From sequence record PQ567651.1: a stretch of 64,000 nt of DNA; one strand, 5' to 3'. Position numbers and translations under genes: made by a program. Shown piece by piece: positions 12,399-59,082 of this stretch. Each line of letters opens with the position of its first letter. Within the stretch, counting starts at the first letter, position 1. The DNA is from Escherichia phage cardinal. Under the pieces are notes generated by a model. That model ran no database searches. It saw nothing but the letters and a program-made list of their open reading frames with translations, and was not told the DNA's origin.

Positions 12399-12403
12399 TA
12401 AAA

Positions 12404-12428
12404 AAGGGGCGAAAGCCCCTTTATTTTT
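12404..12428 (+). terminator. rho-independent terminator ggggc-gaaa-gcccc + T-tract
   Basis: aaaaaggggcgaaagcccctttattttt immediately after stop. Confidence 0.7.
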
Positions 12429-23137: not shown

Positions 23138-23140
23138 ACA

Positions 23141-23162
23141 AAGGGGCGAAAGCCCCTTTTAT
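23141..23162 (+). terminator. rho-independent terminator ggggc-gaaa-gcccc + TTTT
   Basis: same hairpin sequence as at 12404 and 34425. Confidence 0.7.
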
Positions 23163-34424: not shown

Positions 34425-34448
34425 AAGGGGCGAAAGCCCCTTTTCTTA
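34425..34448 (+). terminator. rho-independent terminator ggggc-gaaa-gcccc + TTTT
   Basis: third copy of the same terminator hairpin. Confidence 0.7.
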
Positions 34449-35176: not shown

Positions 35177-35198
35177 AAAACCCGCCGAAGCGGGTTTA
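35177..35198 (-). terminator. hairpin cccgc-cgaag-gcggg flanked by A/T tracts
   Basis: identical core to hairpins at 30795 (reverse orientation) and 60976. Confidence 0.5.
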
Positions 35199-37261: not shown

Positions 37262-37444
37262 TTATTCTTCCTCCTTCACTTCTTCAACTTTACGAAGCAT
37301 ACGTTTATCAAATGTAGCTTTCTGTAGTTGTTCATTAACATCAAACCACACCACTTCGCAAGTATCGTAGGTAGATACCATTACAGTCATTAACATTTCT
37401 TCACTGGCAAGACGTACAATATCACCTGTTTTAATATTTACCAT
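37262..37444 (-). CDS. hypothetical protein
   Basis: track ORF. Confidence 0.45.
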   Translation of the reverse strand: MVNIKTGDIVRLASEEMLMTVMVSTYDTCEVVWFDVNEQLQKATFDKRMLRKVEEVKEEE

Positions 37445-37848
37445 AACTCCTCCAGAAGTTTACCAAGTTTAGTTTTAAATTCATTATCCCACGCTATACG
37501 AACTATGTCAAGATCACCTTGTGCATTACGTTTTGTATCTAAGTAGTAACCACCATGCTCATAGCGGTGTTTTATATGCTCGATCAGACGTTCTTTACCA
37601 CTCTTAGATAAATAATCATCAAATTCCCCATTGAAAAGGTCTAAGATTGTTTGTCTATTATCTCCTAATTGAGTGATTCTAAAGCTAATCAAACATCCCT
37701 GTAAACCTATATCTGTTTGTTTAAGAGAAAACTCATGACCAAAGCCGCCTGTAACTATAACAAGCGGTTTTCCTGTGATAGAGCTTTTAATAACATCTTG
37801 CTTAGGTTCTGCCAAAGATGTTAGAAACTCTTTTAACCATTTGAACAT
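37438..37848 (-). CDS. hypothetical protein
   Basis: track ORF. Confidence 0.5.
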   Translation of the reverse strand: MFKWLKEFLTSLAEPKQDVIKSSITGKPLVIVTGGFGHEFSLKQTDIGLQGCLISFRITQLGDNRQTILDLFNGEFDDYLSKSGKERLIEHIKHRYEHGGYYLDTKRNAQGDLDIVRIAWDNEFKTKLGKLLEELW

Positions 37849-38008
37849 AAACTCTCCTGTGTGGCGTGGCTTTGCCTAAGCGCCGAAGGCGCGGATCAAA
37901 TATAAGCTGAATTTATTACGCCCAGGTAGCCAGGGCGCATAAATATCAGAAATTTACCATCGAATAACTATTCGAGTAAAATTTTCATCGTAATGAGATG
38001 TTTCTGTA

Positions 38009-38203
38009 TCAATAAAAGTTGAAAAAACCTTCAGCATCCAAGCTAACTTTTGCGAAAGTTGGATAAAGCGTGTATATAGCAACTTCTCTGTCTCCATCTT
38101 TAGCTGCTCTCTCAATATACGCGTAGATATTTTGTAAACTCTCCTTTGCTTTGTTAAGTTCTGCGTTTTCTGCCAGTTCTCTCATTTTATCTGCTACAGT
38201 CAT
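38009..38203 (-). CDS. hypothetical protein
   Basis: track ORF. Confidence 0.45.
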   Translation of the reverse strand: MTVADKMRELAENAELNKAKESLQNIYAYIERAAKDGDREVAIYTLYPTFAKVSLDAEGFFNFY

Positions 38204-46542: not shown

Positions 46543-47000
46543 TTACACCTCTCATTAGTAGTTTGTTATGCGCGATATTGCATATTTTATGGAACACAGT
46601 GTACAGACATTTCTATTCAATGCAAGCATTATTTGCATCTTATAAATTTACGTCTCATGCCACACATCATACAGCGTCTTTTCATCTATTACAAGAACAG
46701 CAACCTAGGAACATCATTAATGGAGGGATTAGTATAGGGATTAGTATAGGATTTCCCTATCAATTATTCTATATATACCTAATATTTTTAACACACCCCT
46801 TTGTACATAATATAGACAAATAAATATCTATGCCACAAAAATTTTCTGGTATACCCGATTTATTTCGACACACCCCCTTTTCATAAGCGTAAAGTCAATA
46901 ATATCAATAACTTGCCGCAAAATACTGCTCGCTTGCGAGAGGTGCTTAACGCGATTTTCAGCGCCCCCCCGATTTCTGCCGACCGTCCCCCTCAAATATC

Positions 47001-47037
47001 AATGAGAATAATTATCATTTGCATTATCATTCAATGA
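47001..47037. promoter_or_regulatory. Fur-box-like AT palindrome cluster
   Basis: aatgagaataattatcatttgcattatcattcaatga. Confidence 0.35.
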
Positions 47038-47198
47038 CTTATAAGACTTTTGATTATTTTCTGAGCAAGAAAGGTACTACTCACAACAAAACAGATAAAT
47101 TCTAAGTAAATCAATGGCTTGGCAAGTCTAAACATCTATATACACCTTGCCAAATGAAATGATCTGGCGTGAAATAGTGCCACCCGTGGAAGATAGCT

Positions 47199-47219
47199 GA
47201 TAATGATTATCATTTGCAT
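47199..47219. promoter_or_regulatory. Fur-box-like palindrome
   Basis: gataatgattatcatttgcat vs Fur box GATAATGATAATCATTATC. Confidence 0.4.
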
Positions 47220-47451
47220 ACTTTCTGTACTATAAAACCGACTAAAAATCAAGATAATTCTGATTTATTGCGCTTTTAAGAGAGTAGGCTCAACAAATAA
47301 CAACAAATGAGGTATGTTATAGGGGCAATAGTATGAAAAATCATCTATTCAGATGTAAATAATTTTGCGCAATAGTGGTAATATTTTTCTTGACAAGAAA
47401 GATTTCTTTGTGTGCACATAGCGCCCCTGGAGGGTGGCGCATTATGATCAT

Positions 47452-47505
47452 CAGTGTCATTATTCATTTCAGTGTCATTATTCATTTCAGTGTCATTATT
47501 CACCA
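47452..47505. repeat. 3 tandem copies of 18-bp unit cagtgtcattattcattt
   Basis: perfect copies 1-2, third diverges at end. Confidence 0.8.
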
Positions 47506-48120
47506 TGTTTATTATTGCATAGCTTATTATATGGAGCTTATATTATAGCCAATGTTCTAAACATTAGCTAATAATAACGCACCGCAACAATGTAAGGGAT
47601 ACAATATACCATGTATATTGTTGCGCTTGCAATTGTTGCAAGCTACATAAGCACAAATAATAACTATCGGTGATGGTTATTATGTGGGGTGTGTAGTTGC
47701 GTTATTATTAGCCGCCTATGTGTCCGGCATAGGCTGCTAATGATACGCTTGCGAATTATATTTCTTGTTATAGTTATTGTATGGAATGATTACTACATGA
47801 AATGGTTACTGTATGAAATGATTATCTAAGTAATAGATAGGAAGGTAAAGATTAGATCATAAATAGATAGGATGTGAATTATTTAGTAATGTTACTAACA
47901 ATTTAATAGTTACTTTGTGCAACAATTCGATAGATTATAATTGTAGTTTTAAGGGTTAGATAGATTATATTTAGCTTAGTAATGATTTATATTAGTTATT
48001 ATTGTTTAATACAATGTTATCAATGAGATAGTAACAGTAAGTTATAAATAAAGGTGAGATAATTAGTTTTAATTTAGTTAGATAACTTATTATTTTATAG
48101 GTTAGATGGTCTTAAGTTAA

Positions 48121-48196
48121 GAATGATTCTCATTATTGCATTATGCAATTTATTGCATAAATAATCAGCTATAAATAAGAATGATTATCATTTAAG
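48121..48196. promoter_or_regulatory. Fur-box-like palindromes
   Basis: gaatgattctcattattgcattatgcaat...aagaatgattatcatttaag. Confidence 0.35.
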
Positions 48197-48406
48197 AGGA
48201 AAGACAAGAAAAAGGCTGTTTTTGCCAGGTAATTACATGAAGAAATTAAAAATAAGCGGTCTAAAACACGTTGTAAGCGCCTTATGATCTTCATGGTATG
48301 GTTGTTCATCTGCTCCTTGATTAGCTCGATACCGCGATCTATTCACTTTTTTCGGTGAACGTTTTTGATAGGTAAAAGCTATCATCTTTATTTAGGTAAA
48401 AAGAAA

Positions 48407-48423
48407 GGGCGCAATAAGCGCCC
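48407..48423 (-). terminator. terminator hairpin gggcgc-aataa-gcgccc at end of minus block
   Basis: minus strand reads hairpin then TTTCTTTTT; same hairpin (opposite orientation) at 52283. Confidence 0.6.
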
Positions 48424-48439
48424 TTGTTTGAAATGTTAT

Positions 48440-48811
48440 TTACTGATAAGCTGGATCGTTTGTTATATCAATCCAATGAGATAAATTAATTTTATTTTTT
48501 GCTTTCATTTTCTCGATCAAACGTTCGGCTAATGTTTCTGAACGAATATAAACATGCTCGCTAAAATCTTGCCCCGTTTCTTCGTCGATCATTTCTCTAT
48601 ATTCAACCTTGCCGATAAACGCATAAGTTTTACCCGTGTACCAGTTATGTAAATGGATCTCGCATTTATAATCATCGCTATACCCTTCGGTTGTTCTAAC
48701 TTCAACCAAGTCACCTTTAAACACTGATAAGCACCACATAGGATCACGATCTACAGCGCCGTTAAAATCTTTACCGTTTACAGTAGCCGCCAGGTTGATG
48801 ATATTGCTCAT
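48440..48811 (-). CDS. hypothetical protein
   Basis: track ORF. Confidence 0.5.
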   Translation of the reverse strand: MSNIINLAATVNGKDFNGAVDRDPMWCLSVFKGDLVEVRTTEGYSDDYKCEIHLHNWYTGKTYAFIGKVEYREMIDEETGQDFSEHVYIRSETLAERLIEKMKAKNKINLSHWIDITNDPAYQ

Positions 48812-48886
48812 GGTGATTCCTCGTTTACCGTTTAAAATGATTTGCCCTACACGATAACTATAAGTTAACAGAGGCTATAAAGCAAG

Positions 48887-49117
48887 TTATTTTTCAAAAA
48901 ATTTTTCTACTGTGATATTCTTCCCAGTGGGATTAGCTACTTTCAAAATTTTATCATGTACTGGACGCCCAAAAGAATAAGATCCGTATACAGTAAACCA
49001 ATAATCACCGTCAGGCTGTACTATCACCGCTGCATAGGGTACGCCTTTTTCGTTATTGCTGACAGAATAGATCACATTGCCGTTAATAGCTTCAGCGCGT
49101 TTAATTTGTTCGATCAT
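48887..49117 (-). CDS. hypothetical protein
   Basis: track ORF. Confidence 0.5.
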   Translation of the reverse strand: MIEQIKRAEAINGNVIYSVSNNEKGVPYAAVIVQPDGDYWFTVYGSYSFGRPVHDKILKVANPTGKNITVEKFFEK

Positions 49118-49136
49118 GATATGATTCCTATATTGA

Positions 49137-49196
49137 GCGGGAAACCACTTCCCGCCTTACGTGATACATCTTAGTATAAGGGCGATCCGGTGTCAA
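49137..49196 (-). promoter_or_regulatory. promoter + stem-loop cassette (PeSL-like)
   Basis: minus: TTGACA-17-TAAGAT-GTATCAC..GGCGGGAAGTGGTTTCCCGC. Confidence 0.55.
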
Positions 49197-49324
49197 TAGG
49201 TAGAATTGTAAAGATTTGATAGTTTATTTCTTTGATGTTTTGTTATTTGATAGGTGGAAGCTATCAATATATAATAAGATCGTCCGGTGATTATCTTCCC
49301 CTGCTCCCAGGTGCCGCCCGTTCA

Positions 49325-49365
49325 ATAAGCATAACAAAAAACAGGACAAAAACAAGCCCTGTTTT
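49325..49365 (-). terminator. rho-independent terminator after 49373..49576
   Basis: minus: ACAGG-loop-CCTGT followed by TTTTTTGTT. Confidence 0.5.
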
Positions 49366-49372
49366 GTAAAGA

Positions 49373-49576
49373 TTAGATGATCTGCATATCCTCCACGATA
49401 ATTTCTAATTTCCAAACAAGATGATCTAAGCTCCCTGATAAAAATGATTCCGATACATAACCGCCATCTGACACCGTAGCAAGGATCTCGCCATTTGCTT
49501 GCTCTTTGATTTGAACATCCAGGCGGTTAGCCTTTGCTTTATTCAGGACGGCGATCAGGCGGTTAGCTGTAGTCAT
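49373..49576 (-). CDS. hypothetical protein
   Basis: track ORF. Confidence 0.5.
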   Translation of the reverse strand: MTTANRLIAVLNKAKANRLDVQIKEQANGEILATVSDGGYVSESFLSGSLDHLVWKLEIIVEDMQII

Positions 49577-49598
49577 GGTGTTTTCCTTCCAGTTGTGA

Positions 49599-49654
49599 GC
49601 GGCACTATTGCCGCCCTACGAAATACATTCTACCCGATTTATAATTGTTGTCAA
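49599..49654 (-). promoter_or_regulatory. promoter + stem-loop cassette (PeSL-like)
   Basis: minus: TTGACA-16-TAGAAT...GGCGGCAATAGTGCCGC. Confidence 0.5.
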
Positions 49655-49655
49655 A

Positions 49656-49925
49656 CTATTTTTTCAAGCTCGACCAGTCAAAACACGGGGCGATCTCGTT
49701 AAAACTTGTACCATGTAAAGCACATAATTTTTTAGCAATAGCCGCCGTAACCTGGCGTTGTACGCGCGGATCTGCTACTGATTGGAGAAAATAGGCGGTT
49801 TTATATGTGATCATGCTTTCGCCTGTTTCCTTGTTAACGTGGTGCACGGTTTTAGCCTTATCATCTTTTACCAGGGTGTAACCGGATTCGATGGCCTTGA
49901 TTGCAACGTCCAAAGATATTTTCAT
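49656..49925 (-). CDS. hypothetical protein
   Basis: track ORF. Confidence 0.5.
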   Translation of the reverse strand: MKISLDVAIKAIESGYTLVKDDKAKTVHHVNKETGESMITYKTAYFLQSVADPRVQRQVTAAIAKKLCALHGTSFNEIAPCFDWSSLKK

Positions 49926-49945
49926 GATTTACCTCTTTATTGACG

Positions 49946-49965
49946 GCGGGGAATACTCCCCCGCC
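49946..49965 (-). promoter_or_regulatory. leader stem-loop ggcgggg/ccccgcc
   Basis: GC hairpin of cassette family upstream of 49656..49925; no clear -35. Confidence 0.4.
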
Positions 49966-49972
49966 TTATTAA

Positions 49973-50143
49973 TTACTCTTCATCGTCGCCGTTATAGTAT
50001 TCAATGCCGTTTTCATCGGTTACAGTAATGTTAACGCCACCGATAGCAACACGATCACGGGCAAACGTCATGGCTTCATTTAAATCTTCAGACCAAAAAA
50101 TATTGTGACCTTTGCGCGATACATAAAACATAGTTGGGATCAT
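49973..50143 (-). CDS. small hypothetical protein
   Basis: 57 aa ORF filling gap between cassettes. Confidence 0.35.
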   Translation of the reverse strand: MIPTMFYVSRKGHNIFWSEDLNEAMTFARDRVAIGGVNITVTDENGIEYYNGDDEE

Positions 50144-50165
50144 GATTTGTTTCTCTTCTGTTGTG

Positions 50166-50226
50166 AGCGGGAAACCATTTCCCGCCCTATGTGATAAACT
50201 TTACTACGTTGTTTGCCTAGTGTCAA
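50166..50226 (-). promoter_or_regulatory. promoter + stem-loop cassette (PeSL-like)
   Basis: plus: gcgggaaaccatttcccgccctatgtgata...tgtcaa. Confidence 0.5.
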
Positions 50227-50227
50227 A

Positions 50228-50512
50228 TTATTTTTTAATGTTTTGCCCTACAAAATTGATCACTTCCTTAAGCTGTTTCTCAGTCATGATCGTGCCTGGT
50301 AATTCTTCTTTGATTTCTTCCGGTAGATAGATATTACCGCGCCAGGTTAATAAACAACCGTTTTGATCTTCGCAGATAGAATAAGAGAAGATCCACTCAT
50401 TATCATTCTCAAGCTCCCAAAAGCACAAAAAATCTTCTTTCCCTAAATTTTCAACGGTTAAACATAATCCGCGACGTGCTGCATAGTTGGAAAGTGCTTT
50501 TGTGATCTTCAT
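50228..50512 (-). CDS. hypothetical protein
   Basis: track ORF. Confidence 0.5.
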   Translation of the reverse strand: MKITKALSNYAARRGLCLTVENLGKEDFLCFWELENDNEWIFSYSICEDQNGCLLTWRGNIYLPEEIKEELPGTIMTEKQLKEVINFVGQNIKK

Positions 50513-50531
50513 AGCTTATCTCTTCTGTTAA

Positions 50532-50594
50532 GGCGGGGAAACCATTTCCCCGCTCTATGAGATACAATATACTATCTGTTAGGTGTGCTGTCAA
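50532..50594 (-). promoter_or_regulatory. promoter + stem-loop cassette (PeSL-like)
   Basis: plus: ggcggggaaaccatttccccgc...tgtcaa. Confidence 0.5.
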
Positions 50595-50918
50595 TCAATA
50601 ATCTTTAAGATTTTCTACATTTACAAAAGTGCGTTTATTTTCTAAGTTTTCGCCGTACCATTGCCCCATGTTGATTTCTGCGGTGCGCAACCAGGACATG
50701 CCGCGCTCTATCTTTTTACTTGCAATCTCGATCCGGCTTTTGCATAGTGCTTTCGCTTGCAATGTAAAAACACTATTGCCCTGTAATGCTTCCAGGTCAT
50801 CATGTGCAAGGCGATACTCTTTAAAGCCTGATTCTATCATTTCAATAGCATCAAGTAAACGCGCGCGATGATAGAAAAAATCAGAGTTATCCAAATAAAC
50901 ACCGATCACAGATTTCAT
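50595..50918 (-). CDS. hypothetical protein
   Basis: track ORF, internal ATG start. Confidence 0.45.
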   Translation of the reverse strand: MKSVIGVYLDNSDFFYHRARLLDAIEMIESGFKEYRLAHDDLEALQGNSVFTLQAKALCKSRIEIASKKIERGMSWLRTAEINMGQWYGENLENKRTFVNVENLKDY

Positions 50919-51247
50919 AATTTTACCCTTTTGTTTGCGGCCTTTGCCGTTTTCAAGATATAGTTTAAAGCATAACAAAAAATTGTCAAGCCTTTAAAGC
51001 GTACAACTATAAAACCTATTAAAACACAATGTATAACAACATGGCTATAGTAGCAATACAACATAAAGCCATGCTTGTTTTCCTTCCTTCCTCGTATGCT
51101 GGATTTATTACGCTATATTGTACGGGAATAATTTTCATGCTGTTTCCTTAATGTCTTAAAACGTGGTTTACAATAGAAACAAGCATACAGAAGAAAAAAG
51201 ATCCTGTCAATAAGATACCGAAAAATAAATGTAAATAGGGCATGGTT

Positions 51248-51550
51248 TTACTCCTTAAAAAAATCATTGACAATTAAACTGATAACGCCCAGCACCAGAT
51301 CACCAGGTAGTGCCGCGCTTTCGTTGTTGCTTGTTTGCACTTCCTCACTAGTACCAGCACGATAGATTGCATGGTAAGCAATAGTATAATAACCTTTCGT
51401 TATTTCTTTAAGATTAATGATTAGCACGTTATTTGTTTCATCTTGAAACAATTTAGCGGTGATAGTATTGTTTTCTTTTACACTATCGACTTTTATTGAT
51501 GGATCATTTACACCAGAAAAAAGAAAAAACGTTTTAGCTATGCCGTTCAT
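51248..51550 (-). CDS. hypothetical protein
   Basis: track ORF. Confidence 0.5.
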   Translation of the reverse strand: MNGIAKTFFLFSGVNDPSIKVDSVKENNTITAKLFQDETNNVLIINLKEITKGYYTIAYHAIYRAGTSEEVQTSNNESAALPGDLVLGVISLIVNDFFKE

Positions 51551-51597
51551 GTAGTTCTCCTTTGTTGTGTGTATCTTATAACGTGCTTTCTATGTTG

Positions 51598-51999
51598 TCA
51601 ATCTTTTATCTCGGTGCATTTTGCCAGGGTATACGTTGCAAGTGCTGACACTAGTTTTTCATTGCTACGATCTGCGGCTGTACTGTGTACTTTTTGAATA
51701 CTTTTTAACCACGGCGTAAAATTTTGAGTAGTCAGCACACTGGTAATAATTTCACATGGCACATCTTCATTTAAGCCGTTAACAATAGATTTATCTATTT
51801 TTGCCGTTAGTTGTGTAACAGCACCATAAGCGATCATGTGTGAATCCTCCATGATTTCATCGGGGATCGCATTATTAATAAGCATGACGTTTTCCATTGC
51901 ATCAACGGCGCTTAATTCTGCTACTGTGGAGGATATCGCCGCGCTAGATGTTCCAACCATGCCAAAAGAGATTAAACCAGCGATCAATAATTTTTTCAT
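51598..51999 (-). CDS. secreted protein with signal peptide
   Basis: MKKLLIAGLISFGMVGTSSAA signal-peptide-like. Confidence 0.5.
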   Translation of the reverse strand: MKKLLIAGLISFGMVGTSSAAISSTVAELSAVDAMENVMLINNAIPDEIMEDSHMIAYGAVTQLTAKIDKSIVNGLNEDVPCEIITSVLTTQNFTPWLKSIQKVHSTAADRSNEKLVSALATYTLAKCTEIKD

Positions 52000-52007
52000 T
52001 TCTTGCC

Positions 52008-52190
52008 TCATATATGTTTTATTGAGATTATATTGTCACTATATACAACGTTTTTCAACGTGTCAATAAAAATCTTATTGCCTTCAATCCCCAGGATCAC
52101 GCCGCTAGTTATGAAGCCATATTGATCACGATATCGGGCGCATAACCTTTGCCCCTGGGCTAGTGCCTTGCTTATTTCGTCTAATTTCAT
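52008..52190 (-). CDS. hypothetical protein
   Basis: track ORF. Confidence 0.45.
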   Translation of the reverse strand: MKLDEISKALAQGQRLCARYRDQYGFITSGVILGIEGNKIFIDTLKNVVYSDNIISIKHI

Positions 52191-52282
52191 TTTTAAAGCT
52201 CCTGTAAAGCCGTCTAACGTTGATTTATAGGCTTATCCTGGCGTTACCATTGCCTATGGGTAACAAGCCTCTATATAAGCTA

Positions 52283-52310
52283 AAAGGGCGCTTATTGCGC
52301 CCTTTTTTGT
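52283..52310. terminator. bidirectional terminator hairpin gggcgc-ttatt-gcgccc
   Basis: aaaagggcgcttattgcgcccttttttg. Confidence 0.55.
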
Positions 52311-52447
52311 TATTCGTTCCAGTATCTTTTTGTGCTGCGATCTCTTTTTGTTTTGTTCCGCTTGTCGCCTTTTTTGGTGATCTCTTCGTTCCAATTTTTA
52401 CGCGCCTTGCTGCGGTTGAATTTTTCGATCTGCTGTGATGCGTTCAT
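52310..52447 (-). CDS. small basic protein
   Basis: 45 aa ORF with AAGAGGAAG RBS. Confidence 0.3.
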   Translation of the reverse strand: MNASQQIEKFNRSKARKNWNEEITKKGDKRNKTKRDRSTKRYWNE

Positions 52448-52462
52448 GTTTCTTCCTCTTAA

Positions 52463-52822
52463 TTACGCCACGTTATGCTGTTTTGCCAGGATTACGATCA
52501 TGCTTGCAATATATAACCAATAATTTTCCCGCTCACGGGTAACGGTTGTTTCTTTGCTTGTTTCTTTTATGTACTTCCATTCAATTAACAAGTGATCGAT
52601 CTCGTTATAATCAAAAGCAATATTGATTTCTGACGGTAAACCTTGTAACCAGGAGGCTATCGCCTTGATCATGTTGTGATTGTAACGTTTTTGATTATCG
52701 GGATACCAGTATTCAGATGTAAAACGGCGCATCAGTTCGGTGATCTTTTCTTTTTCTGTTGTAGTACCCTCAAAAGAAATAGCCGACACAATGTAAGTTT
52801 TAATTGCTTTTACTGATTTCAT
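52463..52822 (-). CDS. hypothetical protein
   Basis: track ORF. Confidence 0.5.
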   Translation of the reverse strand: MKSVKAIKTYIVSAISFEGTTTEKEKITELMRRFTSEYWYPDNQKRYNHNMIKAIASWLQGLPSEINIAFDYNEIDHLLIEWKYIKETSKETTVTRERENYWLYIASMIVILAKQHNVA

Positions 52823-52842
52823 AATCTTATCTCTTTATTGTT

Positions 52843-52901
52843 GGCGGGAAACCATTCCCCGCCGTTGTTGTTACTTTACTTATAAATGATGCTACTGTCA
52901 A
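52843..52901 (-). promoter_or_regulatory. promoter + stem-loop cassette (PeSL-like)
   Basis: plus: ggcgggaaaccattccccgcc...tgtcaa. Confidence 0.5.
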
Positions 52902-52908
52902 ACGGATA

Positions 52909-53079
52909 TTATTTGTTTTTTAACGTTAATGTTCCCAGCTTATCAGCGTGACGCAGACCAGGAAAGATCCATTTTCCTGATTCATCTTTTACCGGGGCTT
53001 TAAGCGTAGCGCCCAGGTTGGCGGCATTAACTTTACGTGCAACGTTGCGAGCGGCTTCACGGGTAGCGAAAGTGATCAT
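52909..53079 (-). CDS. small hypothetical protein
   Basis: 56 aa ORF with GAAGAGGAAA RBS. Confidence 0.35.
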   Translation of the reverse strand: MITFATREAARNVARKVNAANLGATLKAPVKDESGKWIFPGLRHADKLGTLTLKNK

Positions 53080-53103
53080 GATGTTTTCCTCTTCTCTTTG
53101 TTA

Positions 53104-53188
53104 GGCGGTGGGCTATTCCACCGCCTTGATGAATACAGTTTACTTTATTTTTGCAGTATTGCAAGCGGTTTTATGAAATAAATGTCAA
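53104..53188 (-). promoter_or_regulatory. stem-loop + TTGACA element (cassette variant)
   Basis: plus: ggcggtgggctattccaccgcc...tgtcaa. Confidence 0.4.
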
Positions 53189-53386
53189 AGTAAAATCATA
53201 ATCTTTTGACAGTTTATATTGCACCTTGTTACCGTATATGTCACCTTTACGTAAAGATCCGCGAATACCTATTACATCCTTTACATCTTTAAGATTTTTC
53301 ACGCCTGTAATGTCTTTATTGAAATGATCGTGATCAGAAAATAAAACCTGCTTTGCATTTTTTAACAGTGTGCGGATATTAGCCAT
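53171..53386 (-). CDS. hypothetical protein
   Basis: track ORF. Confidence 0.5.
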   Translation of the reverse strand: MANIRTLLKNAKQVLFSDHDHFNKDITGVKNLKDVKDVIGIRGSLRKGDIYGNKVQYKLSKDYDFTLTFIS

Positions 53387-53407
53387 TTGATAATCTCTCT
53401 TACTAGG

Positions 53408-53464
53408 GGCGGCACTATTGCCGCCCTATGCATTACATTTTACTGATTTTAGTTATCTTGTCAA
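53408..53464 (-). promoter_or_regulatory. promoter + stem-loop cassette (PeSL-like)
   Basis: plus: ggcggcactattgccgcc...tgtcaa. Confidence 0.5.
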
Positions 53465-53472
53465 TATTATTT

Positions 53473-53700
53473 TTAGTTTAATTGATCCAGGCACAACAAG
53501 CGATCAACATTCAGATCGGTTAGGCTAATCGTTGGCACCTGGTAGGATTCGATGTACTCAACGCTCGACCATTGCCCGAAGTTAGCGACCGCCCAGCTAT
53601 TCAAGGAAGAGTGAAGATCATCCCCTTTCTTCTCGGTGATAACTGCTACTACCTGGGAGCTTCCAACCGTACCGGATACGCGAACAATAACGATAGCCAT
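53473..53700 (-). CDS. hypothetical protein
   Basis: track ORF. Confidence 0.5.
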   Translation of the reverse strand: MAIVIVRVSGTVGSSQVVAVITEKKGDDLHSSLNSWAVANFGQWSSVEYIESYQVPTISLTDLNVDRLLCLDQLN

Positions 53701-53722
53701 AATGATAACCTTTCTTTGATTT

Positions 53723-53782
53723 GGCGGGAAACCATTTCCCGCCCTATGTGATATATCTTACACTAATTTAAAACGTTGTCAA
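53723..53782 (-). promoter_or_regulatory. promoter + stem-loop cassette (PeSL-like)
   Basis: plus: ggcgggaaaccatttcccgccctatgtgatatatctta...tgtcaa. Confidence 0.55.
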
Positions 53783-53877
53783 ATTATTTTCTATTTCTTC
53801 CGTAATAGCCCAATTTATGATCTAAGCTAAAACGTTTTGTGAGATAGGTCGAACGATGTTTCATTTTTATGTCTCCT

Positions 53878-54117
53878 TTACATTCCAACCATAGCGGCAC
53901 GGATCGCGGTTTTACTGAACTTGAATCCGTCTGGCGTTTTATCTTGATCCATACTTTCAAGAAATAACATCATATCCCGCGCTGCGTCATTCTTATTGGT
54001 GTTAGCTGCGATAAATTCACGCGCAAGATTATAAAAACCTTCATCGTTGTTGATCCAAAGGCTTACATTCCAATGAGTTTTGTTTTTGTGACCTAAGAAC
54101 ATTTTAGATTTAGCCAT
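53878..54117 (-). CDS. hypothetical protein
   Basis: track ORF. Confidence 0.5.
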   Translation of the reverse strand: MAKSKMFLGHKNKTHWNVSLWINNDEGFYNLAREFIAANTNKNDAARDMMLFLESMDQDKTPDGFKFSKTAIRAAMVGM

Positions 54118-54141
54118 GATGTTAATCTCTTTTTCAGTGAG

Positions 54142-54199
54142 GCGGGAACTATTCCCGCTCTCGATATAAGTATTATATGCTTTTTATTCGTGCTGTCAA
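54142..54199 (-). promoter_or_regulatory. promoter + stem-loop cassette (PeSL-like)
   Basis: plus: gcgggaactattcccgc...tgtcaa. Confidence 0.5.
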
Positions 54200-54205
54200 T
54201 GCTTT

Positions 54206-54571
54206 TTATAAATCTTTTTTACGTTTAACATCGCTTGCATGACTGTATACAGCGATCCCATTATCACGGCAAAAACGGGAAAGATACGCGCCGCGTGAAA
54301 ACTCTTTGCCCTCCAGGTTGATAACCTTGCTAAACTCTTCCAGGGCGACGGTATCAAAATGATCCCCATAACCATATTGAAACGGAACGTTAACGACTTC
54401 AATCAGTTTACCGCCGATCTCAACGTCAACCATCAAAGAGAAATAAGTATTACCATAAGACTTTTGAAACCAGCGACGGGCGCTAATATGTACCGCTTCA
54501 ATGCTGGATAGTTCAATTTTAGCAGTGTTAGCCAGGGTAGCATAAGCAGAAACATTGATATTTTTAGCCAT
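54206..54571 (-). CDS. hypothetical protein
   Basis: track ORF; preferred over overlapping 54196..54402. Confidence 0.5.
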   Translation of the reverse strand: MAKNINVSAYATLANTAKIELSSIEAVHISARRWFQKSYGNTYFSLMVDVEIGGKLIEVVNVPFQYGYGDHFDTVALEEFSKVINLEGKEFSRGAYLSRFCRDNGIAVYSHASDVKRKKDL

Positions 54572-54666
54572 AGTCTTTAATCTCTTTTGATTAGTTAGGA
54601 GTATTCCCGATAAAAGTTATTATGCTTGTACTATCGTTCGTTGTCAATAGCACAAGACTAAAACTT

Positions 54667-54848
54667 TTAACGATAATCATCATAGGCTTTATTGACCTGG
54701 CGAATATAGCATTCAAAAGCTAGATCAATAGATTTATATTCACGGATATAATCACCATAGGAAACCACATACATTTCTATAGCTTCCTCATATGCCAGGA
54801 TGATAGAATCTAAACCTACGATCTCAGTCTTTGCAATAATAGCCATGC
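54667..54848 (-). CDS. small hypothetical protein
   Basis: 59 aa ORF with TAAGGAA RBS. Confidence 0.35.
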
Positions 54849-54932
54849 TTTTATTCCTTAGTAATGTTTCAATCTATATAAGCATTATAGCTTACTGATT
54901 TCAGGTGTCAAGTGATTTTTTATTTCACCTTA

Positions 54933-54989
54933 TGGGGCGTTGCCCCGCTTTATGTGGTACATATTACGGGGCTTGTTCGCATATGTCAA
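54933..54989 (-). promoter_or_regulatory. stem-loop + TTGACA element (cassette variant)
   Basis: plus: ggggcgttgccccgc...tgtcaa. Confidence 0.4.
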
Positions 54990-54992
54990 GCC

Positions 54993-55547
54993 TTACACAA
55001 GACAATTTTCATAATTTTTTAGGGCTTGTCTTTTTTCCTCTTCCGTCGGCATGTATGGCTGGATCTCTTCCTCTTCCAGGGTAGGCATGATTTCTTCCTC
55101 TTCCTCCTGGTCGTCCTGGTCTTCCTCTTGCGCTACTGCAACAAGTTTATTGATCTTCTCCTGGGCTTTAATCAATTTTGCATCTAGCACCATTTTAGCG
55201 GTGTTGTATACCGTCCATGCCATGCGTTTTTCTTCGTATGCTTTATCTAGTGCGGCTAATTTAGCGGGATACTCTTCCAACACCTTAAAAGCCGGATCAA
55301 TGCTGTATAAGGGATTATTTTTAGCGTCATCGCTTGGATCTGCGGCGCTTGCAATGTCAGCGTTGCCATTCGCCAGCCATCCAGGGCGAACGGATCGCGC
55401 CTTTGTGTTGCCGTTGCTCTTTGCCGCTCGATTTCCTATCTGCTCCCCGCTATACCCTACCATGTGATCGATCATGTCATCTGGTATTATGCGCGGATCA
55501 TTAGCGTCATGCTTTACCCAGGACTGGATCACATATTCACGCCCCAT
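54993..55547 (-). CDS. hypothetical protein with acidic C-terminus
   Basis: track ORF. Confidence 0.5.
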   Translation of the reverse strand: MGREYVIQSWVKHDANDPRIIPDDMIDHMVGYSGEQIGNRAAKSNGNTKARSVRPGWLANGNADIASAADPSDDAKNNPLYSIDPAFKVLEEYPAKLAALDKAYEEKRMAWTVYNTAKMVLDAKLIKAQEKINKLVAVAQEEDQDDQEEEEEIMPTLEEEEIQPYMPTEEEKRQALKNYENCLV

Positions 55548-55809
55548 GTTCGTTCGCCTCTTCTGTTAGTAGTTTACATACCTTAAACATGCTTGCCGCG
55601 TCTTTTGACGGTAGCCAGCCTATGCGATACACTCCAGGATCTGGATTCGTTATATCTGTTAATTGAGCGTTACGATGATTAAAAATAGTGTAACCGCCGC
55701 CAGCACGGGGATAAACATTATCTTTAAACCTGATAGCGTATCTCGCCAGGTTGAACGTTGTAGCATGTTCAAAAGCGATCACATTATCAAAAACTTTTAG
55801 AAAAAACAA
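55537..55809 (-). CDS. hypothetical protein
   Basis: track ORF. Confidence 0.5.
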   Translation of the reverse strand: MFFLKVFDNVIAFEHATTFNLARYAIRFKDNVYPRAGGGYTIFNHRNAQLTDITNPDPGVYRIGWLPSKDAASMFKVCKLLTEEANEHGA

Positions 55810-55810
55810 G

Positions 55811-55957
55811 ATTATCCTCCCCAGCGTTTAAAGCCCGTTGCACGGTTATTTTTTAACTCTCGTTTTAGTCTCTTGCAACGGTTTACAAGTGCAAACCGTG
55901 CCGGAGTGGTAACAGTAGCGCCGTTTTTGGTGTGAATACTCATTACATATTGTTTCA
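55811..55957 (-). CDS. small basic protein
   Basis: 48 aa ORF with AGGA RBS. Confidence 0.3.
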
Positions 55958-55976
55958 TAAAGTTTTATCCTATGTA

Positions 55977-56030
55977 AGCGGGAACTATTCCCGCTTTAAG
56001 ATAGCTTATCAGGTTTTAGTGCAATGTCAA
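55977..56030 (-). promoter_or_regulatory. promoter + stem-loop cassette (PeSL-like)
   Basis: plus: gcgggaactattcccgctttaagatagc...tgtcaa. Confidence 0.5.
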
Positions 56031-56036
56031 CCGTTT

Positions 56037-56399
56037 TTATTCGTAAATTTTACCGCTTTCTACCCATACCATAACGCGGCGCATATTATCCCATGCATCT
56101 TGTCGCAGATTTAAGGCATGCAATTCTTCGGTTGTGCTCATACCTGGTACGGGCTTGCTATATGTTACAAAGAGATCGCCAGCATATTCATAAGCCAGGG
56201 TAAGATCACATTGAATCATCTTTTTAAGCATAGCATTAAGCATCATATTAGCGGCATGTTGATCACGTTTTAGCGGTAGCGTTGCGATCTGTGAGCGATA
56301 GCTTTCGATCCGTGCATCCACTGCATCACGTGGAAGATTTTTCACGTCGTCGCGGAAAGATACCAGGTTTAACATGATAGTATTGATTTGCTTGCTCAT
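56037..56399 (-). CDS. hypothetical protein
   Basis: track ORF. Confidence 0.5.
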   Translation of the reverse strand: MSKQINTIMLNLVSFRDDVKNLPRDAVDARIESYRSQIATLPLKRDQHAANMMLNAMLKKMIQCDLTLAYEYAGDLFVTYSKPVPGMSTTEELHALNLRQDAWDNMRRVMVWVESGKIYE

Positions 56400-56424
56400 T
56401 GTGTTACCCTTTCTTTGATGGCCT

Positions 56425-56484
56425 GGCGGGAAACCATTTCCCGCCCTATGTGATACATCTTATCAGATTAAAAAACGTTGTCAA
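56425..56484 (-). promoter_or_regulatory. promoter + stem-loop cassette (PeSL-like), best consensus copy
   Basis: minus: TTGACA-16-TAAGAT-GTATCACATAG-GGCGGGAAATGGTTTCCCGCC, about 25 nt before ATG. Confidence 0.6.
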
Positions 56485-56503
56485 GAATATTTTTTAGATA
56501 ATT

Positions 56504-56785
56504 TTAACTATATGATCCACATTGTTCGCAGTAGTGATCATCGTCGCCATCAGCTACCTGGCTGATAAAGTGATCTACTTTTGCTTTTAGGTTATTATAA
56601 TTGTTTTCTACTTCCTTTAATCGCTCCTGATAGTAGCCCAGGGCTTTAATATACGCCGCCTCTTCTGTTTTTTCACGCATGGCTAAATTCATGCCGCGCG
56701 TATCATCATACAGCCAAAAGCCATCGGTACATTCACTCATTGAAAGGGTAGGGCTTAACTCTTTATGATTAATTACCTTGCTCAT
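56504..56785 (-). CDS. hypothetical protein
   Basis: track ORF, internal ATG start; C-terminal CEQCG. Confidence 0.45.
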   Translation of the reverse strand: MSKVINHKELSPTLSMSECTDGFWLYDDTRGMNLAMREKTEEAAYIKALGYYQERLKEVENNYNNLKAKVDHFISQVADGDDDHYCEQCGSYS

Positions 56786-56796
56786 AGTGTGCGCCT

Positions 56797-56901
56797 TATA
56801 GAATGATTGAAACAACAATTGCTACAGTGATCCACACTGGAACGGCTAACAAAATAGCGTTAATCGTTCCAACCGTCAAGCTGTTTTCTTTCTTGATCAT
56901 C
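56797..56901 (-). CDS. small membrane peptide
   Basis: 34 aa hydrophobic ORF with AAAAGG RBS. Confidence 0.3.
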
Positions 56902-57169
56902 GTTATCAACCTTTTATAAGTAATGTTATTGTGACGGTGGATTGTGGAGATCCTCACCTTTGCCCGTCCTGCATTGCGCCCTCCTTTTGTTTATTGTCGT
57001 TGTGCCTCGCCCCCCTCGACAAGATGAATAATACGCTACCAGGTGAGGAACGTCAACCCCTTTTTTAATCTTTTTTTCATTTCTTTTTTTTGCTTGCTAT
57101 CTATAAAGGAAAGGGCTATTATCTTTCTACCACGCCAACCAGGGCGCACATCAAAGAAAGGGCGATACC

Positions 57170-58180: not shown

Positions 58181-58183
58181 CGC

Positions 58184-58212
58184 TTGACAAGCGCCCGACA
58201 AGGGCGCATAAT
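58184..58212 (+). promoter_or_regulatory. TTGACA + palindrome + CATAAT element at start of non-coding region
   Basis: cTTGACAagcgcccgacaagggcgCATAATc. Confidence 0.4.
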
Positions 58213-58436
58213 CTCTTACATAGACAGGAACGCCTACCAATGGCGCTAAACTTGGTGATGATAGCCGCAGGGCATCGACAGCTATAATCGCCGGTAGCTC
58301 GTCTAAAATAAATTTGTAAAGAAATGTAAAGATAAAAATAATCGCTTGCTTTTGTTGTTGGTTATGCTATTCTTATTGTATGGCGAGGGGACACGGGAGC
58401 GCGAGACAAACACCGCCCCTGCGCGTTATTTTCTAA

Positions 58437-58546
58437 ATGAGAAAATTCTCATTTGCTAATGATTCTCATTCTCTTACTGAGAATGATTATCACTTACATA
58501 ATTAAATGATAATGATTCTCATTTACAAATGAGAATGATTATCATA
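58437..58546. promoter_or_regulatory. cluster of Fur-box-like palindromes
   Basis: repeated aatgattctcatt / gagaatgattatcat units. Confidence 0.4.
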
Positions 58547-58569
58547 CGCATACCTATAAAAACACGAAA

Positions 58570-58766
58570 TTGAACTTTTCATTTTTGATTTTTCTACGGA
58601 AAAAGGCAAAAAAACTTTAAATAAACTGGGGAATTTTTAAAAAATTGAAGTTTTCATTTTCAAAATCTGGATAGAAATACGTACAAAAACTTTAAATAAT
58701 TTTGACCAAACTTGAACTTTTCATTTTCAAAATTTGTACCCAAAAATCTGTAAAAACTTTAAATAA
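58570..58766. repeat. 3 direct repeats of ~55-bp unit TTGAACttttcattttcaaaat...aaaaactttaaataa
   Basis: three similar units at about 70-bp period. Confidence 0.7.
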
Positions 58767-59082
58767 TTTTGTACTTTTTATAAAAATGATTTTACTGTTC
58801 TGTTATAAGTAGTAGTTAAGAGATAGTATGCCTTTTAAAGATCAGATACCATAGTCAAACAAACAAATTAAATACTTTATTAACAGAGTACAGAATAATA
58901 TTTACTCTGGATATATTATTCAGAGGGTGGATTTCCGTACATGAAACCCACACCCCTTTTTATAAAAATAAAAATTTTCAAAATATCAGTAAATATCAGA
59001 TTGTGCTTTTAGATAAACAGCAAGGTCTGTATGCCATTTTCCTAAAAGATTTTGTCCTTTCCAACAGTCCTTATTTTCCACA

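What the first reader, a model, noticed from the sequence alone, without database searches (positions are those of the whole stretch)
37849..38008. Structured 160-bp intergenic segment inside the minus-strand block: candidate small RNA or leader
The minus block is otherwise tightly packed, but this gap holds two GC hairpins (gcgcc-gaag-ggcgc and cgccc-loop-gggcg) and a palindrome cgaataactattcg, with no ORF of note.
Basis: seen in the sequence. Interest (0 to 1): 0.35.

Follow-up and report, generated by a model that had tools for sequence, protein, structure and literature searches.

The report
Conserved hairpin spacer between two phage genes
This is an ordinary, well conserved, hairpin-containing untranslated spacer between two small early genes of a phi92-like coliphage; it looks longer here only because a one-base insertion truncates the upstream gene, and nothing suggests an independent small RNA.

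Summary
The window is a phi92-like coliphage (Justusliebigvirus). Both GC hairpins and the palindrome exist. The "160-bp gap" is partly an artefact. The window has a T6 run at 38022-38027, where all 55 GenBank relatives and 17 metagenome-derived loci (one a copy of a GenBank phage) have T5. This frameshift cuts the phi92 gp026 homolog from 82 to 64 aa. In every relative the gap is 105 bp (37849-37953), and the palindrome lies in gp026 coding sequence.

Within the real spacer, hairpin 1 extends to a 43-nt, 18-bp stem-loop (37907-37949; -19 kcal/mol; z = -4.4). Hairpin 2 is a 5-bp GC clamp (37880-37892). A 14-nt AU-rich linker separates them.

Such GC hairpins are about 35-fold over-represented in the window. 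The spacer varies about three times less than the flanking genes, but covariation is uninformative. The region has no U-tract terminator, no strong promoter, no Rfam match, no paralog and no host homolog. More distant relatives lack it.

Best reading: a sense-strand leader of the gp027 homolog inside an early operon. Its non-terminator stem-loops probably act on mRNA processing or stability. A weak extended -10 promoter is a rival. A small RNA is not supported. Low interest.

The parts
37849..37953 (-). True intercistronic spacer (105 nt) between the gp026 and gp027 homologs. It is 51% GC in a roughly 35% GC neighbourhood.
   Evidence: The length is 105 bp in 28 of 29 relatives and 106 bp in one. 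Among 16 sequences 3.8% of sites are polymorphic, against 10-13% in the flanking coding sequence.
37907..37949 (-). Extended stem-loop 1, starting 4 nt after the canonical gp026 stop. Layout: CUGA-(U bulge)-AUUUAUGCGCCC-U-GG-CUA-CC-U-GGGCGU-(A bulge)-AUAAAUUCAG. It has 18 bp. The GC core is 37918-37938.
   Evidence: -19.1 kcal/mol, z = -4.38, 0 of 200 shuffles as good; the bulge U37945 varies U/C, G37938 to A turns a G.U pair into A-U, and one sequence breaks the outermost pair. The G.U pair exists only on the sense strand.
37893..37906 (-). AU-rich single-stranded linker CUUAUAUUUGAUCC between the two stem-loops. It is a candidate endonuclease (RNase E type) site.
   Evidence: The sequence is and is unpaired in the minimum-free-energy fold. 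It carries the only indel and two singleton substitutions of the spacer. Cleavage is inferred, not shown.
37880..37892 (-). Stem-loop 2: GCGCC-UUC-GGCGC, 5 GC pairs. It ends 31 nt before the ATG and 21 nt before the Shine-Dalgarno sequence.
   Evidence: -7.1 kcal/mol, no U tail. It is invariant in 30 sequences. The 58-nt segment containing it is not significant on its own (z = -0.73).
37854..37858 (-). Shine-Dalgarno sequence AGGAG of the gp027 homolog.
   Evidence: Annotated as the ribosome binding site in phi92. Sequence.
37438..37848 (-). Downstream gene, the phi92 gp027 homolog (136 aa, unknown function).
   Evidence: phrog_14510. The AlphaFold2 model has pLDDT 89 and no significant PDB match.
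37954..38203 (-). Upstream gene, the phi92 gp026 homolog. It is 82 aa in relatives. Here it is frameshifted and read as 64 aa, ending at 38009.
38022..38027 (-). T6 homopolymer (T5 in all relatives). This one-base insertion creates the apparent extra 55 bp of gap.
37960..37975 (.). Palindrome TCGAATAGTTATTCGA. It lies inside the canonical gp026 reading frame and between the hexamers of the weak promoter-like site.
   Evidence: It is invariant in 28 of 30 sequences, with one substitution at 37972 in two of them.
37951..37980 (-). Weak promoter-like site: TTTACT-N18-TGgTAAATT (extended -10). The -10 hexamer overlaps the gp026 stop codon and lies 12 nt before the GC core of stem-loop 1.
   Evidence: It scores 8 of 12 consensus positions, so the scan does not list it. 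On the phage's own promoter matrix it scores 2.1 bits, rank about 1045. The spacing to the hairpin matches the cassettes at 49-57 kb.

Best explanation
The segment is a cis-acting, sense-strand untranslated leader of the gp027 homolog, inside a polycistronic early transcript of a phi92-like phage.

Proposed mechanism:
- Transcription most likely enters from the strong sigma-70 promoter at 39405-39377 and reads through gp026 (inferred).
- The RNA then forms a long stem-loop 4 nt after the gp026 stop, a 14-nt AU-rich single-stranded linker, and a short GC clamp upstream of the gp027 Shine-Dalgarno sequence. The folds are predicted and their conservation is shown.
- Neither stem-loop is a terminator (shown by the tail scores).
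- Together they most plausibly set the processing and decay pattern of the message (inferred). An endonuclease would cut in the AU-rich linker, or RNase III would cut in the 18-bp stem. Stem-loop 1 would then protect the 3' end of the upstream segment. Stem-loop 2 would protect the 5' end of the gp027 segment.
- This is the same role I infer for the non-terminator hairpins that sit between promoter and Shine-Dalgarno sequence in about a dozen cassettes elsewhere in this genome.
For: - Both hairpins are real and far beyond chance: 35 loci against 1.0 expected.
- Extended stem-loop 1 is exceptionally stable for its composition (z = -4.38). One of its pairs (G.U) forms only on the sense strand. 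The sense strand also folds better than the antisense strand.
- The spacer is 3.8% polymorphic, against 10-13% in the flanking genes.
- The GC core of stem-loop 1, all of stem-loop 2 and positions 37860-37896 are invariant in 30 sequences.
- The two recurrent changes within stem-loop 1 are structure-neutral: one in a bulge, one G.U to A-U.
- The terminator d-scores of the two hairpins (-33 to -60) match those of the cassette hairpins (-49 and -52). They do not match four of the five terminator-type hairpins scored (+18 to +30).
- In the cassettes the same kind of hairpin ends 19-26 nt before the ATG. One occurs without any promoter, at 49926-49972.
- The scan lists no terminator-type hairpin with a U tract between the 39405 promoter and the spacer, only two weak terminator-like matches with 3 GC pairs. 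No strong promoter lies in the spacer.
Against: - No transcript data exist for any phi92-like phage in the literature searched.
- There is no covariation. 21 of 23 pairs never vary, because all relatives are at least 97% identical.
- Conservation extends to loops and linker. That is more than a simple protective hairpin needs.
- Other intergenic gaps of this phage are equally conserved in a 5-sequence comparison.
- Stem-loop 2 is not significant on its own (z = -0.73). The 105-nt spacer as a whole is only marginal (z = -1.86).
- The element is absent upstream of gp027 homologs in sister lineages, so it is dispensable for the gene as such.
- RNase E or RNase III cleavage is pure inference.
Confidence: 0.5

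Rival explanations
1. Degenerate promoter-plus-stem-loop cassette. A weak extended -10 promoter (TTTACT-N18-TGgTAAATT, 37980-37951) overlaps the end of gp026 and starts transcription at about 37944. Stem-loop 1 would then be a 5'-terminal stabilising hairpin of a gp027 transcript, as in the strong cassettes at 49-57 kb.
For: - TGnTAnnnT is present and invariant in 30 sequences.
- The GC core of stem-loop 1 begins 12 nt after the -10 hexamer. In the cassettes the hairpin begins 9-13 nt after it.
- The region upstream is AT-rich.
- In the phiWec188 group, the spacer upstream of the gp027 homolog is a clear TTGACA-hairpin-TATTGT unit.
- T4-type PeSL cassettes use TTTACW as the -35 element (PMC4122927).
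Against: - On a matrix built from 18 promoters of this phage the site scores 2.1 bits, against 14-25 for real ones. About 1000 positions in the window score as well.
- It has 8 of 12 consensus matches with an 18-nt spacer. Even 9-of-12 sites occur at chance frequency here: 14 found against 11 expected.
- The -10 hexamer is largely dictated by the Trp codon plus the stop codon.
- All clear early promoters of this phage carry a perfect or nearly perfect TTGACA.
Confidence: 0.2
2. Leaky intrinsic terminator or attenuator. The long stem-loop 1 plus the moderately U-rich tail CUUAUAUUUGAU would stop part of the read-through from upstream. This would lower expression of gp027 and later genes until the internal promoter at 37511.
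For: - The stem is stable (-19 kcal/mol) and sits directly after a stop codon.
- 7 of the 12 nt after it are U.
- A strong promoter-like site lies downstream inside gp027, at 37511-37483.
- In PeSL cassettes, stem-loops act as attenuators (PMC2839356).
Against: - The tail score is 1.7 and d = -44. Four of the five terminator-type hairpins scored have tails above 4 and d of +18 to +30.
- The base of the stem is A-U rich and bulged.
- The terminator scan does not list it.
Confidence: 0.1
3. DNA-level feature: a module-junction or recombination linker, or a protein-binding site, with no RNA role. The gene upstream of gp027 differs between lineages, so the spacer may be the scar or linker of a gene-shuffling event.
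For: - Upstream neighbours and spacers of gp027 homologs differ between genera: 0-14 bp, 61 bp or 105 bp.
- Every base of the central 37 nt is conserved, including loops.
- PeSL elements are proposed recombination linkers (PMC2839356).
Against: - There is no second copy or related sequence in the window or in any of the 55 genomes. Each record has one matching place.
- No host homolog was found.
- The G.U pair and the better sense-strand fold point to RNA.
Confidence: 0.1
4. Independent small RNA gene.
For: The region is compact, structured, conserved and non-coding.
Against: - No terminator on either strand.
- No credible promoter. The best candidate on the plus strand points away from the hairpins.
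- No Rfam match, even at E up to 10.
- It lies on the sense strand between two co-oriented genes.
Confidence: 0.03

Closest known systems
PeSL (promoter-early stem-loop) cassettes of T4-type phages (Arbiol et al. 2010, PMC2839356; Comeau et al. 2014, PMC4122927)
   Same: It is an intergenic unit with the same order of parts: stop codon in an AT-rich stretch, -35/-10-like boxes, a GC stem-loop near the -10, then a Shine-Dalgarno sequence and ATG. It sits among small early genes of unknown function. The same genome carries about a dozen clear units of this design at 49-57 kb.
   Different: - The promoter part is at background level.
- There are two stem-loops and a roughly 90-nt leader rather than one compact motif.
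- The sequence is unique in the genome, so it cannot act as a repeated recombination linker.
- The stem-loops do not look like terminators.
- The phage is not T4-like.
5'-terminal and intercistronic stabilising stem-loops of E. coli and phage mRNAs (ompA 5' UTR type; REP-like 3' barriers). This is from my own knowledge of the literature.
   Same: The stem-loops are stable, have no U tract, and flank an AU-rich single-stranded segment in a polycistronic message. One sits just after a stop codon and the other upstream of a Shine-Dalgarno sequence.
   Different: No processing or half-life data exist here. The sequence is unrelated to REP or ompA elements, and no E. coli homolog was found.
RNase III processing sites between the early genes of phage T7 (R0.3-R1.3). 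This is from my own knowledge.
   Same: It is an imperfect hairpin of about 20 bp with bulges, lying between early cistrons of a coliphage.
   Different: It has only 18 bp and no asymmetric internal loop of the T7 type. It is a single site rather than one per junction. Cleavage is untested.
Rho-independent terminators of the same phage (for example AAACCCGC-TTCG-GCGGGTTTT at 35178-35197)
   Same: A GC-rich stem-loop in an intergenic position.
   Different: It has no A-tract or U-tract flanks. The d-score is -33 to -60, against +18 to +30 for four of the five terminator-type hairpins scored.

Membership tests
Intrinsic (Rho-independent) terminator | GC-rich stem-loop | tested here: met
   5-bp all-GC stems, and an extended stem of -19 kcal/mol.
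Intrinsic (Rho-independent) terminator | U-tract immediately 3' of the stem, with a positive d'Aubenton-Carafa d-score | tested here: not met
   tail scores 0.5-1.7 and d of -33 to -60. Four of the five terminator-type hairpins scored in the window give +18 to +30. One search lists no terminator here.
PeSL-like promoter/stem-loop cassette | Near-consensus sigma-70 promoter (-35, 16-18 nt spacer, -10) | tested here: not met
   2.1 bits on the phage's own matrix (rank about 1045), against 14-25 bits for the cassettes. The site has 8 of 12 consensus positions and is not listed. Only the extended -10 (TGgTAAATT) is good.
PeSL-like promoter/stem-loop cassette | Stem-loop adjacent to the promoter, followed by a Shine-Dalgarno sequence and start codon | tested here: met
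   the GC core starts 12 nt after the -10-like hexamer, and AGGAG plus ATG follow.
PeSL-like promoter/stem-loop cassette | Member of a repeated, sequence-conserved family within the genome | tested here: not met
   no paralog in the window; one matching place per genome in 55 genomes.
Small RNA gene | Own promoter and own terminator that delimit a short transcript | tested here: not met
Small RNA gene | Discrete transcript in infected cells | not testable with these tools
   No transcriptome of a phi92-like phage was found.
Any Rfam family (cis-regulatory element, ribozyme, sRNA) | Covariance-model match at the gathering score | tested here: not met
   no match in the whole window; the best hit is 17 bits, against a gathering score of 55.
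Conserved structured RNA (general) | Compensatory base-pair changes across relatives | tested here: inconclusive
   21 of 23 pairs never vary and no pair changes on both sides. One pair varies between G.U and A-U. All relatives are at least 97% identical, and more distant relatives lack the spacer.
RNase III site | About two helical turns of imperfect duplex | tested here: inconclusive
   18 bp with two single-base bulges and one U.U mismatch.
RNase III site | Cleavage in vivo or in vitro | not testable with these tools
   Needs RNA work in rnc+ and rnc- hosts.
RNase E site | AU-rich single-stranded segment flanked by stem-loops | tested here: met
   CUUAUAUUUGAUCC is unpaired between the two stems. 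This is a permissive sequence criterion only. Cleavage is untested.

The most novel reading that the evidence does not exclude
The spacer is invariant through its loops and linker. It could therefore be a genus-specific RNA operator, recognised sequence-specifically by a phage protein (for example the uncharacterised gp026 or gp027, which some depositors annotated as possible regulators) or by a host factor. Such an operator would give translational or stability autoregulation of the downstream early genes, rather than a passive stabiliser.
Probability: 0.1. Interest if true: 0.35.

Novelty: new member of a known kind. Interest (0 to 1): 0.15.

Why it matters
The finding matters little on its own. 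Hairpin-containing intercistronic leaders are common in phage early operons, and this one has no feature that challenges current ideas.

Its practical value is threefold:
- It flags a frameshift, or a homopolymer sequencing error, in the gp026 homolog of this genome.
- It shows that this phage uses two distinct classes of GC hairpin: U-tailed terminators and non-terminator hairpins upstream of ribosome binding sites.
- It gives a defined, conserved 105-nt element that could be tested when a transcriptome of a phi92-like phage is made. These phages are used in phage therapy collections.

Tried and rejected
- **Rfam.** Neither the gathering threshold nor E up to 10 gave anything meaningful. No tRNA or tmRNA was found.
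- **Paralogs.** The best hit in the window is a 16-nt match at E = 0.3.
- **Host origin or REP-like element.** There is no match in 5,426 E. coli genomes.
- **Covariation.** Thirty sequences give no information. Scans of metagenome and viral contigs, and look-ups of distant gp027 homologs, found no intermediate relatives that keep the spacer. The 61-bp spacer of the phiWec188 group is not alignable with this one.
- **Hidden coding.**
  - The only mini-ORF (14 codons, ATG at 37940-37938) has no Shine-Dalgarno sequence and loses its ATG in 3 of 30 sequences.
  - The gp027 frame has a stop 10 codons upstream of the ATG, so no N-terminal extension is possible.
  - Read-through of the gp026 TAA would add 25 codons, but nothing supports this.
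  - The AAAUUUC heptamer at the stop is in the wrong frame for -1 slippage. These last three points come from reading the sequence.
- **rV5 "late" motif TggTAaAAtA** (PMC3606486). The spacer site matches 8 of 10 positions. The motif is not enriched in the window, and nearly all copies fall inside predicted ORFs.
- **Lambda-type nut site (boxA/boxB).** Only a loose CGCTTA resemblance exists. This rests on my own knowledge and I rejected it.
- **Palindrome as operator.** It lies in coding sequence. Its invariance is not significant given only 8 codons.

Full report
**What the window is.** The 1.2 kb around the finding matches 55 GenBank phage genomes at 97-99% identity. All are phi92-like coliphages (genus Justusliebigvirus, subfamily Stephanstirmvirinae). 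The finding lies between the homologs of phi92 gp026 (upstream) and gp027 (downstream, 37438-37848). Both are on the minus strand, inside a run of small genes of unknown function.

**Check of the observation.**
- They are not chance events. Perfect all-GC stems of at least 5 bp occur at 35 loci in the window, against 1.0 +/- 0.75 in dinucleotide shuffles. This is one of only two closely spaced pairs.
- The 160 nt fold with z = -3.55 on the sense strand and -1.92 on the other strand.
- The length of the gap is an artefact of this particular sequence. The window has six T at 38022-38027, where phi92 and PaulScherrer have five.
- All 55 GenBank records align with one base fewer across this run. 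All 29 other sequences in a 30-sequence alignment have T5.
- With T5 the upstream gene is 82 aa and ends at the TAA at 37956-37954. Every record and every gene call shows this. PHROG 25653 matches residues 1-82 of 82.
- The true spacer is therefore 105 bp (37849-37953). The palindrome encodes ...FTRIVIRW* of gp026.
- Whether T6 is a real mutation or a homopolymer sequencing error cannot be decided here.

**Anatomy of the real spacer, read on the sense strand.**
- The first hairpin starts four nucleotides after the stop codon. It extends well beyond the GC core into a 43-nt stem-loop with 18 base pairs, two single-base bulges and one U.U mismatch (37949-37907). It folds at -19.1 kcal/mol, with z = -4.38 and no shuffle as good among 200.
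- A 14-nt AU-rich unpaired linker follows (CUUAUAUUUGAUCC, 37906-37893).
- Next comes the 5-bp clamp GCGCC-UUC-GGCGC (37892-37880), then 21 nt, then AGGAG (37858-37854) and the ATG at 37848.
- The second hairpin is not remarkable by energy on its own (z = -0.73). The 105 nt as a whole are marginal (z = -1.86).
- The spacer is 51% GC in a roughly 35% GC neighbourhood.

**Conservation.**
- Among 16 genomes the spacer has 4 substitutions in 105 positions (3.8%). The flanking coding regions have 10-13%.
- In 30 sequences, the GC core of hairpin 1, all of hairpin 2 and positions 37860-37896 never change.
- Within hairpin 1 the two recurrent changes are structure-neutral. One is the bulged U37945 (U or C). 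The other is G37938 to A, which converts a G.U pair into A-U.
- One sequence breaks the outermost pair.
- A formal count gives 21 of 23 pairs invariant and no double-sided change. Covariation neither supports nor refutes the structure.
- Other intergenic gaps of these phages are similarly conserved in a 5-genome comparison. The constraint is real but not exceptional.

**Distribution.**
- At nucleotide level the spacer is found only in this genus.
- gp027 homologs at 40-50% identity exist in Phapecoctavirus and unclassified relatives. Their upstream junctions differ: 17 bp in ESCO13, 8 bp in Citrobacter Tr1, 13-14 bp or overlapping in two metagenome lineages, and 25 bp after a divergently oriented gene in Klebsiella phage phi1_175008. 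One further lineage (L044) has no called gene within the 1.2 kb upstream.
- In the phiWec188 group the junction is a 61-bp unit of a different kind. It reads TTGACA - hairpin with UUCG loop - TATTGT, and it does not align with the spacer here.
- The element is thus a lineage-specific addition at a variable gene junction.

**What it is not.**
- It matches no Rfam family, even at E up to 10.
- It has no paralog in the window or in the relatives' genomes. It has no counterpart in E. coli genomes.
- It is not an intrinsic terminator. The d'Aubenton-Carafa-type score is -33 to -60 for both hairpins on both strands. Four of the five terminator-type hairpins scored in the phage give +18 to +30, and the fifth gave -15. 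The consensus scan lists none here.
- It has no convincing promoter. A matrix built from 18 clear promoters of this phage gives 2.1 bits to the best sense-strand candidate (TTTACT-N18-TGgTAAATT, 37980-37951). That is rank about 1045 in the window, against 14-25 bits for real sites.
- It hides no coding sequence. The only mini-ORF loses its ATG in 3 of 30 sequences.
- An independent small RNA is therefore not supported.

**Context that suggests a function.**
- GC hairpins in this phage fall into two classes.
- The first class is U-tailed, often bidirectional terminators, for example AAAGGGGCGAAAGCCCCTTT.
- The second class is non-terminator hairpins placed between a promoter and a Shine-Dalgarno sequence.
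- Between 49 and 57 kb, about a dozen gaps follow one design. The order is TTGACA, 16-17 nt, TAnnnT, 9-13 nt, a GC hairpin (often GGCGGGAAATGGTTTCCCGCC), 19-26 nt, then ATG. One gap (49926-49972) has the hairpin without a promoter.
- By tail score, the hairpins of the finding belong to this second class.
- The design recalls the PeSL cassettes of T4-type phages. Those combine near-consensus early promoters with stem-loops at variable positions (PMC2839356; PMC4122927).

**Most likely mechanism.**
- The nearest strong sense-strand promoter upstream is at 39405-39377. The scan lists only two weak terminator-like matches between it and the spacer.
- I therefore read the spacer as an intercistronic leader within an early polycistronic mRNA.
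- Two stable stem-loops flanking an AU-rich single strand is the classic layout for endonucleolytic processing. The upstream product would gain hairpin protection at its 3' end, and the downstream product at its 5' end.
- Alternatively, the 18-bp stem could itself be an RNase III substrate.
- The structure and conservation are shown. The processing and stabilising roles are inferred. I give the cis-acting mRNA-element reading a confidence of 0.5.

**Rivals.**
- *Weak extended -10 promoter (0.2).* It would make hairpin 1 a 5'-terminal stem-loop. The 12-nt spacing from the -10 hexamer to the GC core matches the cassettes. However, the site is at background level and is partly dictated by the Trp and stop codons.
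- *Leaky attenuator (0.1).* It would use the long stem and the tail CUUAUAUUUGAU.
- *DNA-level junction or linker (0.1).*
- *Small RNA (0.03).*
- A remainder is left for no function at all.

**Neighbouring genes.** gp026, gp027 and their neighbours have no Pfam match above threshold, and their PHROG families are of unknown function. A confident AlphaFold2 model of gp027 (pLDDT 89) has no significant match in the PDB. No partner protein can be proposed from the data.

**Verdict.** The finding is a real, conserved, structured leader of an ordinary kind. Its size was overstated because of a frameshift in this genome. It is not an independent small RNA. Interest is low (0.15). In novelty it is a new member of a known kind.

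Noticed in passing
window 38022-38027: A one-base insertion (T6 against T5) truncates the phi92 gp026 homolog from 82 to 64 aa. It is unique among 55 GenBank records and 17 metagenome-derived loci (one a copy of a GenBank phage). It is either a real frameshift mutation or a homopolymer sequencing error.
   Followed up: yes
window 48400-57050, minus strand (for example 56484-56400, 53782-53701, 50226-50144): About a dozen near-identical intergenic cassettes share one design: TTGACA, N16-17, TAnnnT, 'gtatcacatag', the GC hairpin GGCGGGAAATGGTTTCCCGCC (variants keep the pairing), about 20 nt, then ATG. One gap has the hairpin only (49926-49972). This is a PeSL-like architecture in a phage that is not T4-like. 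I found no description of it for phi92-like phages.
   Followed up: partly
window 46988-48197 and 58430-58547: Clusters of Fur-box-like repeats (TGAGAATGATTATCA type). The Fur consensus GATAATGATAATCATTATC matches 4 times with at most 3 mismatches, against 0.03 expected. At least seven 15-17-mers, plus inverted partners, lie inside two large stretches for which the crude ORF map shows at most short ORFs of 57 aa or fewer. This could mean iron-responsive control, Fur titration, or sites for a phage repressor.
   Followed up: partly
window 58567-58787 and 47440-47502: Three direct repeats of about 75 nt (66-72% identical) lie in the 902-bp stretch 58181-59082, where the crude ORF map places no ORF. 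Three tandem 18-nt units lie at 47440-47502. This might be an origin-like or iteron-like region.
   Followed up: no
window 37483-37511, minus strand: A strong promoter-like site, TTGACA-N17-TGgGATAAT, lies inside the coding sequence of the gp027 homolog, 39 nt upstream of the next gene's start. It scores 11 of 12 consensus positions and 13 bits on the phage matrix.
   Followed up: partly
window 12403-12422, 23140-23159, 34425-34442: The same bidirectional terminator, AAAGGGGC-GAAA-GCCCCTTT, recurs at three intergenic sites on the plus-strand gene block.
   Followed up: no
GenBank MG065639, MG065645, MG065656, MG065689: Four records named 'Campylobacter phage', with Campylobacter jejuni as host, are 97% identical to these E. 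coli phi92-like phages. A fifth (MG065650) carries a Phapecoctavirus-like gp027 homolog. The host labels look doubtful.
   Followed up: no
L005/L006/L011/L015/L040, position 1440-1500 (1140-1200 in L040): In the phiWec188 group the spacer upstream of the gp027 homolog is a compact unit: TTGACA - ACACCCUC(UUCG)GAGGGUGU - TATTGT. The hairpin fills the promoter spacer and is followed by a U-rich tail, so promoter and terminator overlap.
   Followed up: partly
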